IMG/VR virus record: IMGVR_UViG_3300029184_000028
Origin: a virus
Lineage: Duplodnaviria > Heunggongvirae > Uroviricota > Caudoviricetes
DNA: 8,176 nt
Direction: 5' to 3' (one strand)
Shown: positions 2,966 to 8,129 of the stretch, piece by piece
Numbering within the stretch: position 1 is the first letter of the stretch
Layout: each line of letters starts with the position of its first letter
Notes under the pieces: generated by a model
Told to the model about the DNA's origin: nothing
The model's database searches: none
What the model saw: the letters and a program-made list of their open reading frames with translations, nothing else
Program-made: the position numbers and the translations under genes

Positions 2966-3267
2966 TGTCCTGTTCTCATTCAGTTGTATTACTGAATAAC
3001 GCCTTAAAAATCGCCGTTATGAAAAATGGCGATTTGTCTCTTATTCAAATTTGCCTTGATAAAGAAAAACGCGAAATAACTGAGTCTGTTATCGCGATTT
3101 ATCAGAACGAATTAAATCTCCTGTCTGATGTGGTCAATTTACTTGTTAAACGCGCTGTATTCCACAAGCAAATTTCCTCAGTGGATGAACTGACAAAATT
3201 AACGACAGAAATTGCCAGCTATTGCGCTGATGAATTTAAAAAACTTAACGACAAAAGGAGCTGGTAA
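2965..3267 (+). CDS. Hypothetical small early protein (100 aa; P2 orf81 position)
   Basis: ATG 2965 preceded by GGGGAGG at 2951-2957. Stop TAA at 3265-3267 overlaps the next start (TAATG). Codon usage is more AT-rich than its neighbours. Confidence 0.6.
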   Translation: MSCSHSVVLLNNALKIAVMKNGDLSLIQICLDKEKREITESVIAIYQNELNLLSDVVNLLVKRAVFHKQISSVDELTKLTTEIASYCADEFKKLNDKRSW

Positions 3268-3488
3268 TGCCGGACAACGTAGATTTTATTCAGGAACAAC
3301 AGGCTGAATTACTGGAGCGCCAGATTAACGCGGCAAGGGTAAAGCATTGCGGTGTTTCTGCGCTGGTTTGCGAAGAGTGTGACGCGCCAATACCTGCTGC
3401 CCGTCGTGCGNNNNNNNNNNNNNNNNNTTGTGTTTCCTGCCAGTCAGTCTTTGAAGCAAAAAACAAACATTACCGGAGAACGGCATGA
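3267..3488 (+). CDS. TraR/DksA-family C4 zinc-finger protein (73 aa; interrupted by a 17-N run)
   Basis: Paired CxxC motifs (CEEC ... CVSC) with spacing typical of the TraR/DksA C4 zinc finger. ATG 3267 preceded by AGGAG at 3256-3260. Reading frame is continuous across the N-run at 3411-3427. Stop TGA at 3486-3488 overlaps the next ATG. Confidence 0.75.
   Translation: MPDNVDFIQEQQAELLERQINAARVKHCGVSALVCEECDAPIPAARRAXXXXXXCVSCQSVFEAKNKHYRRTA
3411..3427. other. Run of 17 ambiguous bases (N): assembly gap or masked bases
   Basis: Directly visible in the sequence; lies inside the zinc-finger gene between its two CxxC pairs. Confidence 1.
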
Positions 3489-3760
3489 GTATTCGTATTG
3501 AAATTGGCGAACGTTATGTCGTTACCAGTGACAGCTTTCAGTTTATTCTCCACGAGAAAAAGAGAGCTGAAAGCGGTAAAAACGCCGGTCAGGAATGGCT
3601 GGCGGTGGTTGGTTATTACCCGAAATTAAGCCAGCTCGTTTCCGGCCTGATGCATCACGATATTCTGACCGGAAGCGCAAAGTCTTTTGCTGATTTAAAC
3701 GCGCAGGTTGAGCAACTCAGCAAGCGTTGTTCAGAGGCTTTTGGCTCATATGGCCGTTAA
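3485..3760 (+). CDS. Hypothetical small early protein (91 aa; P2 orf83 position)
   Basis: ATG 3485 preceded by GGAG at 3473-3476. Stop TAA at 3758-3760 overlaps the likely start of A. No recognisable motif. Confidence 0.6.
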   Translation: MSIRIEIGERYVVTSDSFQFILHEKKRAESGKNAGQEWLAVVGYYPKLSQLVSGLMHHDILTGSAKSFADLNAQVEQLSKRCSEAFGSYGR

Positions 3761-6056
3761 AGCCTCCGGGCGTTTTGTCCCTCCGTCAGTATTTGCCGCA
3801 GGCACCGGTGAGACGTTTACCGGTGCTTATGCATGGAACGCGCCACGCGAGGCCGTCGGGCGCGAAAGACCCCTTACACGTGACGAGATGCGTCAGGTGC
3901 AAGGTGTTTTATCCACGATTAATCGCCTGCCTTACTTTTTGCGCTCGCTGTTTACTTCACGCTATGACTACATCCGGCGCAATAAAAGCCCGGTGCACGG
4001 GTTTTATTTCCTCACATCCACTTTTCAGCGCCGTTTATGGCCGCGTATTGAGCGCGTGAATCAGCGCCATGAAATGAATACCGACGCGTCGTTGCTGTTT
4101 CTGGCAGAGCGTGACCATTATGCGCGTCTGCCGGGGATGAATGACAAGGAGCTGAAAAAGTTTGCCGCCCGTATCTCATCGCAGCTTTTCATGATGTATG
4201 AGGAACTCTGCGATGCATGGGTTGATGCACATGGCGAGAAAGAATCGCTGTTTACAGATGAGGCGCAGGCGCATCTGTATGGTCATGTTGCTGGCGCTGC
4301 ACGTGCTTTCAATATTTCCCCTCTCTACTGGAAAAAATACCGTAAAGGACAGATGACCACGAGGCAGGCATATTCTGCCATTGCCCGTCTGTTTAACGAT
4401 GAGTGGTGGACTCATCAGCTTAAAGGCCAGCGTATGCGCTGGCATGAGGCGTTACTGATTGCTGTCGGGGAGGTCAATAAAGACCGTTCTCCTTATGCCA
4501 GTAAACACGCCATTCGTGATGTGCGTGCGCGCCGCCAGGCAAATCTGGAATTTCTTAAATCGTGTGACCTTGAAAACAGGGAAACCGGCGAGCGCATCGA
4601 CCTTATCAGTAAGGTGATGGGCAGTATTTCTAATCCTGAAATTCGCCGGATGGAGCTGATGAACACCATTGCCGGTATTGAGCGTTACGCCGCCGCAGAG
4701 GGTGATGTGGGGATGTTTATCACGCTGACCGCGCCGTCAAAGTATCACCCGACTCGTCAGGTCAGAAAAGGCGAAAGTAAAACCGTTAAGCTTAATCACG
4801 GCTGGAACGATGAGGCATTTAATCCAAAGGATGCGCAGCGTTATCTCTGCCGCATCTGGAGCCTGATGCGCACGGCATTCAAGGATAATGATTTACAGGT
4901 CTACGGTTTGCGTGTCGTCGAGCCACACCACGACGGAACGCCGCACTGGCATATGATGCTTTTTTGTAATCCACGCCAGCGTAACCAGATTATCGAAATC
5001 ATGCGTCGCTATGCGCTCAAAGAGGATGGCGACGAAAGAGGAGCCGCGCGAAACCGTTTTCAGGCAAAGCACCTTAACCGGGGCGGTGCTGCGGGATATA
5101 TCGCGAAATACATTTCAAAAAATATCGACGGCTATGCACTAGATGGTCAGCTCGATAACGATACCGGTAAGCCGCTTAAAGATACTGCCGCGGCTGTTAC
5201 CGCATGGGCGTCAACGTGGCGCATCCCGCAATTTAAAACGGTTGGACTGCCGACAATGGGGGCTTACCGTGAACTACGCAAATTGCCTCGCGGCGTCAGT
5301 ATTGCTGATGAGTTTGACGAACGCGTCGAGGCTGCTCGCGCTGCCGCAGACAGTGGTGATTTTGCGTTGTATATCAGCGCGCAGGGTGGGGCAAATGTCC
5401 CGCGCGATTGCCAGACTGTCAGGGTCGCCCGTAGCCCGTCGGATGACGTTAACGAGTACGAGGAAGAAGTCGAGAGAGTGGTCGGCATTTACGCGCCGCA
5501 TCTCGGCGCGCGTCATATTCATATCACCAGAACGACGGACTGGCGCATTGTTCCGAAAGTGCCGGTCGTTGAGCCTTTAACTTTAAAAAGCGGCATCGCC
5601 GCGCCTCGGAGTCCTGTCAATAACTGTGGAAAGCTCACCGGTGGTGATACTTCGTTACCGGCTCCCACACCTTCTGAGCACGCCGCAGCAGTGCTTAATC
5701 TGGTTGATGACGGTGTTATCGAATGGAATGACCCGGAGGTCGTGAGGGCGCTCAGGGGCGCATTAAAACACGGCCTGAGAACACCAAACCGTCAGCAAAG
5801 AAACGGAAGCCCGTTAAAACCGAATGAAATAGCGCCATCGGCCAGGCTGACCCGGTCGGAGCGTATGCAAATTACCCGTATCCGTGTTGACCTTGCTCAG
5901 AACGGCATCTGGCCTCAGCGATGGGAACTTGAGGCGCTGGCGCGTGGCGCGACCGTAAATTATGACGGGAAAAAATTCACGTATCCGGTCACTGATGAGT
6001 GGCCGGGATTCTCAACAGTAATGGAGTGGACATCATGGCAAAAATTCACGAGGTAA
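3750..6056 (+). CDS. A: Replication initiation endonuclease A (HUH-superfamily rolling-circle initiator, ~769 aa from ATG 3750; ORF track starts at TTG 3708)
   Basis: HUH-type metal-binding motif EPHHDGTPHWHMMLF and a paired-tyrosine active site AGYIAKYISKNIDG (Y-x3-Y), as in phiX174 gpA / P2 A nickases. Length is close to P2 A (761 aa) and the gene is last in the early operon. Stop TAA at 6054-6056. Confidence 0.92.
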   Translation: MAVKASGRFVPPSVFAAGTGETFTGAYAWNAPREAVGRERPLTRDEMRQVQGVLSTINRLPYFLRSLFTSRYDYIRRNKSPVHGFYFLTSTFQRRLWPRIERVNQRHEMNTDASLLFLAERDHYARLPGMNDKELKKFAARISSQLFMMYEELCDAWVDAHGEKESLFTDEAQAHLYGHVAGAARAFNISPLYWKKYRKGQMTTRQAYSAIARLFNDEWWTHQLKGQRMRWHEALLIAVGEVNKDRSPYASKHAIRDVRARRQANLEFLKSCDLENRETGERIDLISKVMGSISNPEIRRMELMNTIAGIERYAAAEGDVGMFITLTAPSKYHPTRQVRKGESKTVKLNHGWNDEAFNPKDAQRYLCRIWSLMRTAFKDNDLQVYGLRVVEPHHDGTPHWHMMLFCNPRQRNQIIEIMRRYALKEDGDERGAARNRFQAKHLNRGGAAGYIAKYISKNIDGYALDGQLDNDTGKPLKDTAAAVTAWASTWRIPQFKTVGLPTMGAYRELRKLPRGVSIADEFDERVEAARAAADSGDFALYISAQGGANVPRDCQTVRVARSPSDDVNEYEEEVERVVGIYAPHLGARHIHITRTTDWRIVPKVPVVEPLTLKSGIAAPRSPVNNCGKLTGGDTSLPAPTPSEHAAAVLNLVDDGVIEWNDPEVVRALRGALKHGLRTPNRQQRNGSPLKPNEIAPSARLTRSERMQITRIRVDLAQNGIWPQRWELEALARGATVNYDGKKFTYPVTDEWPGFSTVMEWTSWQKFTR
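5601..5620 (+). other. Putative origin of replication / A-protein nick site inside the A coding sequence
   Basis: Sequence GCGCCTCGGAGTCCTGTCAA matches my recollection of the P2 ori nick region, which is known to lie within gene A. Recalled, not checked against a database. Confidence 0.45.
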
Positions 6057-6487
6057 AGCTTCACGCAAAATATTTCGACCTTGTGCTGGAAGGAAAGAAA
6101 CGTGCAGAGTTTCGGAAAAATGACCGTAATTATGAGCGCGGGGACACGCTGATTTTGCATGAATGGGTGCAGGGTGTGTTTACGGGGCGAAAGGTTGAAG
6201 CCCGGATAACAGATGTTACTGACCTGTCAGACTGGCTGGAAGATTATGTCTTGCTAAGTATTGAGCTGCTTAATACAAGCGCATATGAGATTGTGAACTG
6301 GAAAGAACTTAGTGAGCGTGGTCTGGTATTCAGAATTAATCATGAAATTATGCATCAGCTCGGCCTTGCTGTTATGTATGAACCAGAGACGGGGATGTCT
6401 GGCGGGGCAATGGTTGCCACGGATGGAGCATGGAACTATTCAGATGAACAGATTGAGAGTGCAAAGCAAAACGGGTGGCTTGGATAA
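6035..6487 (+). CDS. DUF3850/ASCH-like protein with unassigned C-terminal extension (~150 aa)
   Basis: ATG 6035 preceded by GGAG at 6023-6026 (spacing 8); overlaps the end of A by 22 nt. N-terminal segment KLHAKYFDLVLEGKKRAEFRKNDRNYERGDTLILHEW resembles the DUF3850/ASCH fold signature. Stop TAA at 6485-6487. Confidence 0.6.
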   Translation: MAKIHEVKLHAKYFDLVLEGKKRAEFRKNDRNYERGDTLILHEWVQGVFTGRKVEARITDVTDLSDWLEDYVLLSIELLNTSAYEIVNWKELSERGLVFRINHEIMHQLGLAVMYEPETGMSGGAMVATDGAWNYSDEQIESAKQNGWLG

Positions 6488-6693
6488 TGCACGGAATACC
6501 AGGCGAGATACCGCAACATAACACTAAAAATATCAAGCTGATGGCTATTGTTCACCGTCTACAGCAGATTATGGTCAACGAAAATCTGACGCCTGACGAG
6601 CTGGTCGGGTGTGCTGAAATAGTCCGGGATAATTACGGGCGGTTTAACTATATCGGTCAGTCCAGAGTTGCGCCACCACCACGCAGACGATAG
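6487..6693 (+). CDS. Small hypothetical protein (68 aa), translationally coupled to the upstream gene
   Basis: ATG 6487 overlaps the upstream stop (TAATG). No RBS of its own and no recognisable motif. Alternative in-frame ATG at 6541. Could be a gene remnant. Confidence 0.3.
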   Translation: MHGIPGEIPQHNTKNIKLMAIVHRLQQIMVNENLTPDELVGCAEIVRDNYGRFNYIGQSRVAPPPRRR

Positions 6694-6766
6694 AGAACGC
6701 CGCCAGTCGTGAAACTTGTTTTCAGGGCTGGCGGGGTTGAACAACGAGCGAAGTGAGGCGTTAGCA

Positions 6767-7708
6767 TTAAGTTAATTTTAATGAATGGTACTCTATCGAG
6801 CTGATTGTAGATGCGATATATTTACGATCATTTACAGAGAGTATTGCCGCTAGTAGACGACATACCAGAGCCTGCATTTGTAGCAATATATCGCTACCAT
6901 ATTGACAATCATTGATACTAGAGAAACCAAGCGGTTGCCCATTAAAAATGGCTTCATGAAAATTATCATTGCGTATAACTGAAACATTACATTCATCTGT
7001 TGCCCATGACGGGATTTTTACACCGTAATTTTCGCACATCCAATATACTCTATTTTGATGAGATGGTTTTTTCTCTTTAATGACTTTATCCCTTTCATCC
7101 CATGCTATAGCAAAACAGCAATCAAGAGCCATATAAAGATACTGGAATTTCTCAAAGGAAAGGTATAGTGGGTTATGTGATAGGAATAGGGAGTGTATCA
7201 CCGCAGCTATTCTTTTAATGGAGCGATCATCTTTTTGTTTGTCTTTTATATAGTTAAGTGCTAGCTCTATTACTTCTTTTTCAGAGCATCCAATGAGAAT
7301 AAAGTCAGTTAACTTAGTGGGCTTGATAGTGGTTGCATCAAGAAAACCAGCGTCAGTGGTTGTCAATCTTATACCCTTGAAAAAAGAGAGGCACCACACA
7401 ACAAAGTTGAGAGTTTCTAACGAGGATGTGTTTTTTAATTTTAGTGTGTGCGTTTTGGGCATGCCGAATACTCGGTAACTATAAGGCATTGTGCATGTGT
7501 CACCATTAAGGTTATATACCTTTCGATTCCCAGGGTATATCCAACCATTAACAACGTTTTTATCATTGTTAATACGTTCCACTTTCTCAATAAGACCGGG
7601 TAAAGTACGCAAAGAAAATTGTTCAGTCTCAATGTTAACTTCTACTGGATAGTATCCAAACTCCGAAATAATCTCATTTGGTTGCTGTTCATCAACTTCA
7701 CCTTGCAT
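6767..7708 (-). CDS. Hypothetical 313-aa protein; candidate anti-phage defence / abortive-infection cargo at the P2 variable locus
   Basis: Uninterrupted 942-nt ORF with ATG (7706-7708) preceded by GGAG at spacing 6. Antisense to the early operon and convergent with it. Markedly AT-rich relative to the A gene (by eye, roughly mid-30s % GC against low-to-mid 50s). No TM segment, Walker A or other motif I can assign. Lies in the interval between the replication genes and cos. Confidence 0.8.
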   Translation of the reverse strand: MQGEVDEQQPNEIISEFGYYPVEVNIETEQFSLRTLPGLIEKVERINNDKNVVNGWIYPGNRKVYNLNGDTCTMPYSYRVFGMPKTHTLKLKNTSSLETLNFVVWCLSFFKGIRLTTTDAGFLDATTIKPTKLTDFILIGCSEKEVIELALNYIKDKQKDDRSIKRIAAVIHSLFLSHNPLYLSFEKFQYLYMALDCCFAIAWDERDKVIKEKKPSHQNRVYWMCENYGVKIPSWATDECNVSVIRNDNFHEAIFNGQPLGFSSINDCQYGSDILLQMQALVCRLLAAILSVNDRKYIASTISSIEYHSLKLT

Positions 7709-7730
7709 AACTTTCTCCGTTCAAAAACAG

Positions 7731-7800
7731 GCACGATAATTCTCGTAAGCCTATCATGTTCGCAAAGTATCCATACCTGTGGATTTTGTAAATTTAAGTT
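7731..7800 (-). promoter_or_regulatory. Putative promoter region for the 313-aa cargo gene
   Basis: Minus-strand candidates: TTGCGA - 18 nt - AATTAT, or TTTACA - 17 nt - TACTTT, upstream of the RBS. Neither is a strong consensus match. Confidence 0.3.
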
Positions 7801-7946
7801 GATTTATCATTAAATAAGCCGTTGCATGCAACAAGTGAATGTTTTTGCATGCGTCGGGGATGTCCGTTCAGGCTGCGTGCAGTCAGGACTGGTGCGGATC
7901 CATAGTATCTATGCAACTGCATTAAAACCGCCCCATGAAGCGGGCG

Positions 7947-7965
7947 GGCGAGGCGGGGAAAGCAC
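7947..7965. other. cos site: 19-nt P2/P4-type cohesive end GGCGAGGCGGGGAAAGCAC
   Basis: Exact match to the 19-nt cohesive-end sequence I recall for P2/P4/186. It is flanked on the right by G/T-rich repeats, as expected for a terminase recognition region. Confidence 0.7.
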
Positions 7966-8107: not shown

Positions 8108-8129
8108 AAAAAAGCCGCCCGCAGGCGGC
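8108..8129 (-). terminator. Rho-independent terminator for a leftward late transcript
   Basis: Read on the minus strand: GC stem GCCGCC (8124-8129 complement) / GGCGGC (8114-8119 complement) with a 4-nt loop, followed by a run of six T (plus-strand A-run 8108-8113). Sits just downstream of a minus-strand stop codon at 8135-8137. Confidence 0.7.

What the first reader, a model, noticed from the sequence alone, without database searches (positions are those of the whole stretch)
6767..7708. AT-rich, oppositely oriented 313-aa orphan gene in the P2 variable locus: candidate single-gene anti-phage system
The interval between the replication genes and cos in P2-like phages is a known hotspot where unrelated defence systems are swapped (P2 itself carries tin and old there). 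Here that slot holds one 313-aa ORF on the opposite strand with its own strong RBS and a plausible own promoter. Its base composition is sharply lower in GC than the flanking A gene and cos region, which suggests recent horizontal acquisition. I cannot match it to Old (no Walker A), a reverse transcriptase (no YxDD) or any other family I can recognise from motifs. It is therefore a candidate undescribed defence or abortive-infection protein.
Basis: partly seen in the sequence, partly recalled or inferred. Interest (0 to 1): 0.85.

Follow-up and report, generated by a model that had tools for sequence, protein, structure and literature searches.

The report
Likely suicide RNase in prophage hotspot
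The 313-residue gene beside the packaging site of this P2-like phage is real, and most likely encodes an untested two-part "abortive infection" enzyme (an unfamiliar sensor-like domain plus a divergent HEPN RNA-cutting domain) that protects the lysogen from other phages; others have already catalogued and computationally predicted it as a defence gene.

The parts
6767..7708 (-). ORF313-family gene, 313 aa including the stop codon. It is the only gene of the cassette.
   Evidence: ORF list. PHROG 5937 full-length match, E=2e-199. 99.7-99.9% identical copies in Yersinia phages vB_YpM_46 / VB-YPM-4 and in E. coli prophages. 654 family clusters.
7289..7708 (-). N-terminal alpha/beta domain (aa 1 to about 140), a candidate sensor or regulatory domain. 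It holds the most conserved stretch of the protein, around aa 108-135 (GxRLT...GFLDAT...DF), plus R79, T86-H87, R114, D124 and D135.
6770..7288 (-). C-terminal all-helical domain (aa 141-313) with a HEPN-like fold; the putative RNase effector.
6956..6973 (-). Codons for R246-N-D-N-F-H251, the candidate HEPN Rx4H catalytic motif (family consensus RNxxxHE).
   Evidence: R246, N247, H251 and E252 are invariant in 35 sequences. R246 and H251 occur together in 93 of 96 diverse members; the exceptions are truncated or misaligned. The motif lies on predicted helix 242-256. The other Rx5H (R166/H172) is not conserved: R166 is present in 27 of 96.
7714..7718 (-). Ribosome-binding site GGAGA, 5 nt upstream of the ATG.
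   Evidence: Sequence. An RBS is annotated at the same place in AM157369.
7709..7918 (-). Cassette-specific upstream non-coding region. It presumably holds the promoter or operator, which was not located. It contains an inverted repeat at 7819-7834 / 7842-7857 with a GCATGCA core.
   Evidence: Backbone homology in phages lacking the gene resumes near 7919 (inferred from the coverage figures). Inverted repeat. The region is 97-99% identical in three lineages whose coding sequences are 74-86% identical. No consensus promoter, no tandem repeat and no significant RNA structure, z=-1.8 and -1.4.
7947..7965 (+). P2-type cos, the 19-nt cohesive-end sequence, marking the right edge of the hotspot.
   Evidence: Exact match, 0 expected by chance. 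Linear phage records end within about 45 bp of it. The identity of the 19-mer as the P2 cohesive end is from my own knowledge.
7928..7947 (-). Terminator-like hairpin followed by a T run, upstream of the gene on the same strand. A second one lies at 8114-8129. They would insulate the gene from read-through coming from the portal-gene side.
   Evidence: Terminator scan. The portal gene lies upstream on the same strand in prophage copies.
6696..6738 (-). Hairpin between the convergent orf92-like gene (stop at 6693) and ORF313 (stop at 6767). It is a candidate bidirectional terminator and lies in the conserved backbone.
   Evidence: RNA fold, -19.1 kcal/mol, z=-2.1. The left-flank homology runs to about 6764.

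Best explanation
The gene encodes a self-contained, prophage-borne abortive-infection protein of the HEPN RNase kind. Shown: the protein has two domains. The C-terminal helical domain has a HEPN fold and carries a near-invariant RNxxxHE (Rx4H) motif. The gene travels alone, without a conserved partner. It sits in the P2 defence hotspot and, in other bacteria, often lies beside known defence genes. Inferred: in the lysogen the protein is made from its own promoter and kept inactive. Infection by a competing phage produces a signal that the N-terminal domain detects. The unusually strong conservation of that domain fits a conserved small molecule or nucleic acid better than a fast-evolving phage protein. 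Detection then frees the HEPN active site, probably as a dimer or larger assembly as in other HEPN enzymes. The enzyme cuts cellular RNA, with tRNA anticodon loops the most likely target by analogy with ApeA, HepS and DARNA. Translation stops and the infection is aborted.
Confidence: 0.55

Rival explanations
1. The protein is a phage counter-defence or host-takeover enzyme. In this reading the HEPN domain serves the phage, for example by degrading cyclic-oligonucleotide immune signals (as the HEPN domains of some Csm6/Csx1 proteins do) or by processing specific host RNAs.
For: The gene is phage-borne. Csm6 HEPN domains are among the best structural matches. HEPN enzymes that deplete cyclic oligoadenylate are mentioned in the DARNA preprint.
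Against: Most family members are in bacterial chromosomes or islands outside recognisable prophages, and often beside defence genes. The gene is a separate unit, divergent from the early operon, in the slot where P2 carries old and tin. DefensePredictor scores it as defensive. No CARF or other signal-binding domain was detected.
Confidence: 0.1
2. The protein is the toxin of a toxin-antitoxin or addiction module that stabilises the prophage or island. The antitoxin would be an unrecognised small protein or a cis-encoded RNA from the conserved upstream region, as for the RNA antitoxin of the HEPN protein AbiF.
Against: No neighbour family is conserved across the 78 loci. There is no tandem repeat, no Rfam match and no significant RNA structure upstream. 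Distant homologues have very different upstream spacing and neighbours. The high conservation of the upstream region is explained at least as well by recombination, because it continues into the N-domain codons.
Confidence: 0.1
3. The protein is not a nuclease. The C-domain would be a non-catalytic helical or nucleotide-binding HEPN-like module (as in sacsin or the partners of kanamycin nucleotidyltransferase), or an unrelated helical bundle. The protein would then have some other accessory function, such as lysogenic conversion or regulation.
Against: The Rx4H dyad, with a polar residue after the R, is kept in 93 of 96 members down to 24% identity. Further near-invariant charged residues (E186, H217, R220, R284) lie in the same domain. 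The genomic associations point to conflict systems.
Confidence: 0.15

Closest known systems
ApeA (Gao et al. 2020; Ec1/Ec2ApeA, bioRxiv 10.64898/2026.01.26.701840)
   Same: Single-polypeptide defence with non-catalytic N-terminal part(s) followed by a C-terminal divergent HEPN domain. It acts by abortive infection and needs no partner gene. In ApeA the closest structural relative of the HEPN part is HepT, which is also among the hits here.
   Different: ApeA is about 580 aa with three helical domains (N, Mid, HEPN_ApeA) and matches Pfam HEPN_Apea. ORF313 is 313 aa with an alpha/beta N-domain. It has no Pfam or PADLOC match, and no profile-profile similarity to a HEPN_Apea family.
Short 'HEPN_Apea' protein of the P4 satellite hotspot (Rousset 2022 Table S1B, system 24, about 318 aa)
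   Same: Nearly the same length. It has an N-terminal domain plus a C-terminal Rx4H (RSKVTH), stands as a single gene, and lies next to cos in the P2/P4 system.
   Different: No detectable sequence relationship in either domain (hhalign probability 0.1-0.6%). The resemblance is one of architecture only.
HepS (Gifsy-1 prophage, Nature 2026, PMC13043305)
   Same: A prophage-encoded, partner-less HEPN abortive-infection tRNase that is expressed constitutively in the lysogen.
   Different: HepS is a stand-alone HEPN of under 250 aa with its motif at R100-H105. It is triggered directly by a siphovirus tail-tip protein. ORF313 has an extra 140-aa N-domain and its motif is at 246-251.
DARNA / PD-T7-3 (bioRxiv 10.64898/2026.02.22.705581)
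   Same: A single HEPN protein acting by abortive infection, a tRNA anticodon nuclease activated by an infection-associated nucleic-acid signal.
   Different: The domain order is reversed: HEPN at the N-terminus (R117-H122) and a 300-aa helical C-domain, 456 aa in total. Its PADLOC model does not match ORF313.
DS-11 (CBS-HEPN) and other HEPN-containing DefensePredictor systems (PMC13092281)
   Same: New E. coli single-protein systems in which a small ligand-binding domain is proposed to gate a HEPN nuclease. ORF313 is in the same paper's list of untested predictions.
   Different: The sequences and domains differ. ORF313 motifs are absent from all cloned or validated sequences.
P2 old and tin
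   Same: They occupy the same genomic slot (gpA to cos) and play the same presumed role of prophage-encoded exclusion of other phages.
   Different: The proteins are unrelated. Old is an ABC-ATPase plus TOPRIM nuclease; ORF313 has no Walker A motif.

Membership tests
HEPN superfamily | Helical-bundle HEPN fold | tested here: met
HEPN superfamily | Conserved Rx4-6H motif, usually with a polar residue after the R | tested here: met
   RNDNFH at 246-251. R and H occur together in 93 of 96 members, N247 in 88 of 96 and E252 in 87 of 96. The motif is on predicted helix 242-256.
HEPN superfamily | Metal-independent RNase activity, with a composite active site across a dimer | not testable with these tools
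   Needs biochemistry or a multimer model. Only single-chain prediction was available.
Apea-like HEPN (Pfam PF18739) / ApeA defence system | Significant match to the HEPN_Apea profile | tested here: not met
   0 of 35 members matched, and 1 of 96 at E=0.15. The PADLOC ApeA models gave no hit. hhalign against a 55-sequence HEPN_Apea family gave probability 0.3-0.6%, and the catalytic motifs did not co-align. One UniRef name for P0091 is the only hint.
Apea-like HEPN (Pfam PF18739) / ApeA defence system | Three-domain architecture of about 580 aa (helical N, Mid, HEPN_ApeA) | tested here: not met
   313 aa in two domains, with an alpha/beta N-domain.
HepS | Stand-alone HEPN under 250 aa with no extra domain | tested here: not met
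   ORF313 has a 140-aa additional domain.
DARNA / PD-T7-3 and other PADLOC 2.0 systems | Match to the system's profile HMM | tested here: not met
   No PADLOC family matched the query or the first 35 members. The 96 diverse members gave only four scattered sub-threshold single hits.
P2 gpA-cos hotspot cargo (Rousset 2022) | Lies between gpA and cos/gpQ, and the content differs between related phages | tested here: met
   gpA at 3708-6056, cos at 7947-7965, and the portal gene beyond it in prophage copies. Other phages carry different cargo there. A family member is listed as system #11.
Anti-phage defence system (functional class) | Reduces phage plating or burst when expressed | not testable with these tools
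   No experiment was found. The gene is absent from the tested sets of Rousset 2022 and DefensePredictor. The evidence is only prediction (log-odds 9.68) and association.
Type III toxin-antitoxin (RNA antitoxin, as for AbiF/ToxIN) | Tandem repeat array or structured RNA next to the toxin gene | tested here: not met
   No tandem repeats, no Rfam match, and fold z-scores of -1.8 and -1.4.
RyR domain (N-terminal aa 12-75) | Sequence and fold similarity to bacterial RyR-repeat proteins | tested here: inconclusive
Old (ABC-ATPase/TOPRIM) and Abi reverse transcriptases | Walker A motif; YxDD motif | tested here: not met
   Neither motif is present.

The most novel reading that the evidence does not exclude
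The N-terminal 140 residues form a previously unseen sensor fold. Its near-invariant pocket residues (R79, T86-H87, R114, D124, D135 and the GFLDAT...DF stretch) would bind a conserved infection-associated small molecule or nucleic-acid end. Binding would allosterically switch on an otherwise unrecognisable HEPN RNase. Sensor and effector halves would be re-assorted by recombination at the domain boundary, as seen between this allele and P2-EC67. That would make it a new family of ligand-gated, single-chain abortive-infection RNases found across the Proteobacteria.
Probability: 0.3. Interest if true: 0.7.

Novelty: new variant of a known kind. Interest (0 to 1): 0.5.

Why it matters

Tried and rejected
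- Pfam, NCBIfam and PADLOC scans of the query gave no usable hit. The same scans on 35 and then 96 family members also gave nothing usable.
- Foldseek against the PDB found nothing significant. AFDB50 was not available.
- I tested whether the gene is DARNA/PD-T7-3, HepS or canonical ApeA. All three were rejected on architecture and on the profile tests.
- I checked whether Rousset's tested 'Putative HEPN' (pFR103, E. coli S88) is this gene. It is a different protein, annotated DUF4209.
- hhalign of the family against a genuine HEPN_Apea family, both full length and domain by domain, found no relationship.
- I looked for a partner gene or antitoxin. There is no conserved neighbour, no tandem repeat, no Rfam family and no significant upstream RNA structure.
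- The consensus scan for a promoter found nothing upstream of the ATG.
- The second Rx5H (R166/H172) was rejected as the catalytic motif because R166 is not conserved.
- Literature searches by accession, by sequence motif and by topic found no functional study.

Full report
OBSERVATION. The window is the early region of a P2-like phage. In order it holds an integrase (146-1141, -), a repressor-like gene, a Cox-like gene, a B-like gene, small ORFs, gpA (3708-6056, +), an ASCH/DUF3850 gene and an orf92-like gene. The ORF in question follows at 6767-7708 on the opposite strand. GC is 0.366 for the ORF (GC3 0.315), 0.533 for gpA (GC3 0.548) and 0.585 on the cos side. A GGAGA ribosome-binding site lies 5 nt before the ATG. 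The exact 19-nt P2 cohesive-end sequence is at 7947-7965, so the gene is the last one before cos. The claimed promoter is not confirmed: the consensus scan found none between the ATG and cos. Two terminator-like hairpins upstream on the same strand (7928-7947 and 8114-8129) mean the gene must have its own promoter.

IS THE SLOT VARIABLE? Yes. Of 78 phage records that share the left flank (up to about window 6764), only three carry most of the query. vB_YpM_50 has an unrelated 197-aa ORF in the slot. Wphi and another P2-type record carry a cytosine methylase plus two other ORFs. vB_YpM_46 and P2-EC67 carry this gene. Rousset et al. 2022 describe exactly this gpA-gpQ interval as a defence hotspot, with 1,650 different arrangements (PMC9122126).

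IT IS NOT AN ORPHAN.
- The gene was deposited as 'ORF313' of P2-EC67 (AM157369) from the ECOR survey of this locus.
- PHROG 5937 (function unknown) matches full length.
- It is found in 99 of 5,426 complete E. coli genomes, always on the chromosome. These include an ST131 prophage where it again follows the portal gene.
- Rousset's Table S5B lists a family member as system #11 with a count of 218. I did not see the column header. There is no annotation and no comment.
- The family sequence is absent from their table of cloned systems. Their 'Putative HEPN' pFR103 is a different protein, annotated DUF4209.
- DefensePredictor (PMC13092281) lists the ST131 allele WP_001161722.1 in Table S10, sheet 'uncharacterized_clusters'. 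Its cluster representative is WP_001620979.1, the accession of this window's allele. Mean log-odds is 9.68, and the columns for HHblits and Foldseek homologues among known defence proteins are empty.
- The gene is not among their 118 cloned units. Family-specific motifs are absent from all the sequence tables.
- Every public record calls it a hypothetical protein.
- Searches of the paper library by accession, motif and topic found no functional study.

THE FAMILY. A profile search of 1.84 billion representative proteins found 654 clusters at E<=1e-3 and 194 at E<=1e-30. Almost all are 290-320 aa long and cover both halves of the profile. Members occur in Alpha-, Beta- and Gammaproteobacteria and in a few other phyla. 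The query and 131 further members gave no Pfam or PADLOC match that passes threshold. The only HEPN hints were HEPN_RiboL-PSP at E=0.074 and HEPN_Apea at E=0.15, each in one member of 96.

MEMBERSHIP TESTS.
- ApeA proteins are about 580 aa with three helical domains.
- DARNA/PD-T7-3 has its HEPN domain at the N-terminus.
- HepS is a stand-alone HEPN of under 250 aa.
- From Rousset's P4 table I took a genuine Pfam HEPN_Apea protein of 318 aa, which has the same size and layout as ORF313. I built a 55-sequence profile for it. I compared the profiles at full length and domain by domain. The probability was 0.1-0.6%, and the catalytic motifs did not align.
- So ORF313 works like these systems on paper, but it is not a sequence-level member of any of them.

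CONTEXT.
- Across 78 loci from different species there are 52 synteny groups.
- No neighbour family occurs in more than 12 loci, and those 12 belong to one clade. The gene therefore travels alone.
- Of 99 immediate neighbours, at least nine are strong PADLOC matches: Type IIG RM, Drt1a, HmaA, PDC-S49, RmrA, HEC-05, mad2 (two) and PDC-M06B.
- Pfam adds GmrSD, an AbiEii-type AAA_21, DUF4238, two Phd/YefM antitoxins and TrbI. Housekeeping genes are also present.
- In P. aeruginosa the gene lies in a ParB/DUF932 island about 3 kb from a Gabija-like pair.
- In Aeromonas it is a lone insert among housekeeping genes.

MECHANISM. Shown: the two-domain architecture, the HEPN-like fold, the conserved dyad, the lack of a partner, the hotspot and defence-island association, and the signs of horizontal transfer. 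Inferred: the lysogen expresses a latent RNase. The N-domain senses infection and releases HEPN activity, which cuts tRNA or other RNA and aborts the infection, as in ApeA, HepS and DARNA. The strong conservation of the N-domain fits a conserved ligand better than a variable phage protein, but that is a guess. Rival readings are a counter-defence enzyme, a toxin-antitoxin toxin with a hidden antitoxin, and a non-catalytic module. Each has some support but fits the distribution, the motif conservation and the negative repeat and RNA tests less well.

SIDE OBSERVATION. Compared with P2-EC67, the 210-nt upstream region and codons 1 to about 140 are 97-100% identical. The HEPN half is only 52-85% identical, with 44 synonymous and 54 non-synonymous codon changes. 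The breakpoint coincides with the domain boundary, which suggests that alleles exchange halves by recombination.

VERDICT. This is a credible, still untested, single-gene defence candidate, but of a familiar kind: a HEPN abortive-infection RNase with a new N-terminal domain. Two earlier studies had already flagged it. I rate it a new variant of a known kind, with moderate interest (0.5).

Noticed in passing
window 7289-7918 compared with L001 (AM157369) 1408-2561: Mosaic allele. The upstream 210 nt and the N-domain codons are 97-100% identical to P2-EC67, while the HEPN half is only 52-85% identical (44 synonymous and 54 non-synonymous codon changes). The breakpoint is at the domain boundary. 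A Salmonella phage copy (L094) also has a 97% identical upstream region although its coding sequence is 74% identical.
   Followed up: partly
window 7819-7857: A 16-nt inverted repeat with a GCATGCA core lies in the cassette-specific upstream region. It is kept in all five diverged copies compared. It may be an operator or part of the unidentified promoter region.
   Followed up: partly
window 3411-3427: A run of 17 N interrupts the TraR/DksA-type zinc-finger ORF (3267-3488), which therefore translates with X residues.
   Followed up: no
L002 (E. coli 2013C-4830) 10196-11424 and 16128-17356: In this prophage, which carries a 99.9% identical copy, an IS2 element sits directly beside the gene on the gpA side. 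A second IS3-family element lies further along, and gpA and cox are pseudogenes. The prophage is decaying while the ORF313 gene stays intact.
   Followed up: no
L003-L007 (P. aeruginosa) 8001-8960 and 11984-15924: The P. aeruginosa homologue (46% identity, seen on 172 contigs) lies in an island with ParB_N and DUF932 genes. It is about 3 kb from an OLD-TOPRIM ATPase plus UvrD helicase pair that looks like Gabija.
   Followed up: partly
N-terminal aa 12-75 (window about 7484-7675): There is weak but repeatable profile similarity to bacterial RyR-repeat proteins (3nrt, 4n05, 6ug5, 6uag; E=0.014-0.03). The fold search and Pfam do not support it.
   Followed up: yes
Rousset 2022 Table S1B system 24; proteins P0270-P0389: The P4 satellite hotspot carries a 318-aa 'HEPN_Apea' protein with the same length and the same layout (N-domain plus C-terminal Rx4H) as ORF313, but with no detectable sequence relationship. 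The two architectures may be convergent or extremely diverged, in the two cos-adjacent hotspots.
   Followed up: partly
L093 (phage vB_EcoM-613R3) 885-4206; L095 (ST131) 6025-7176: In some relatives the hotspot holds the ORF313 gene together with other cargo. One has DinI and a 'UV induction' gene on one side and two further ORFs between it and the portal gene. The ST131 copy has an ImmA/IrrE metallopeptidase plus a hypothetical gene.
   Followed up: no
L096 (E. coli SC476) 5704-6648: A copy with about 66% nucleotide identity lies outside a P2 hotspot. It sits next to a tRNA-like gene at the edge of a different, degraded prophage that has an S24 peptidase, DinI, a recombinase and tail-fibre genes.
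   Followed up: no
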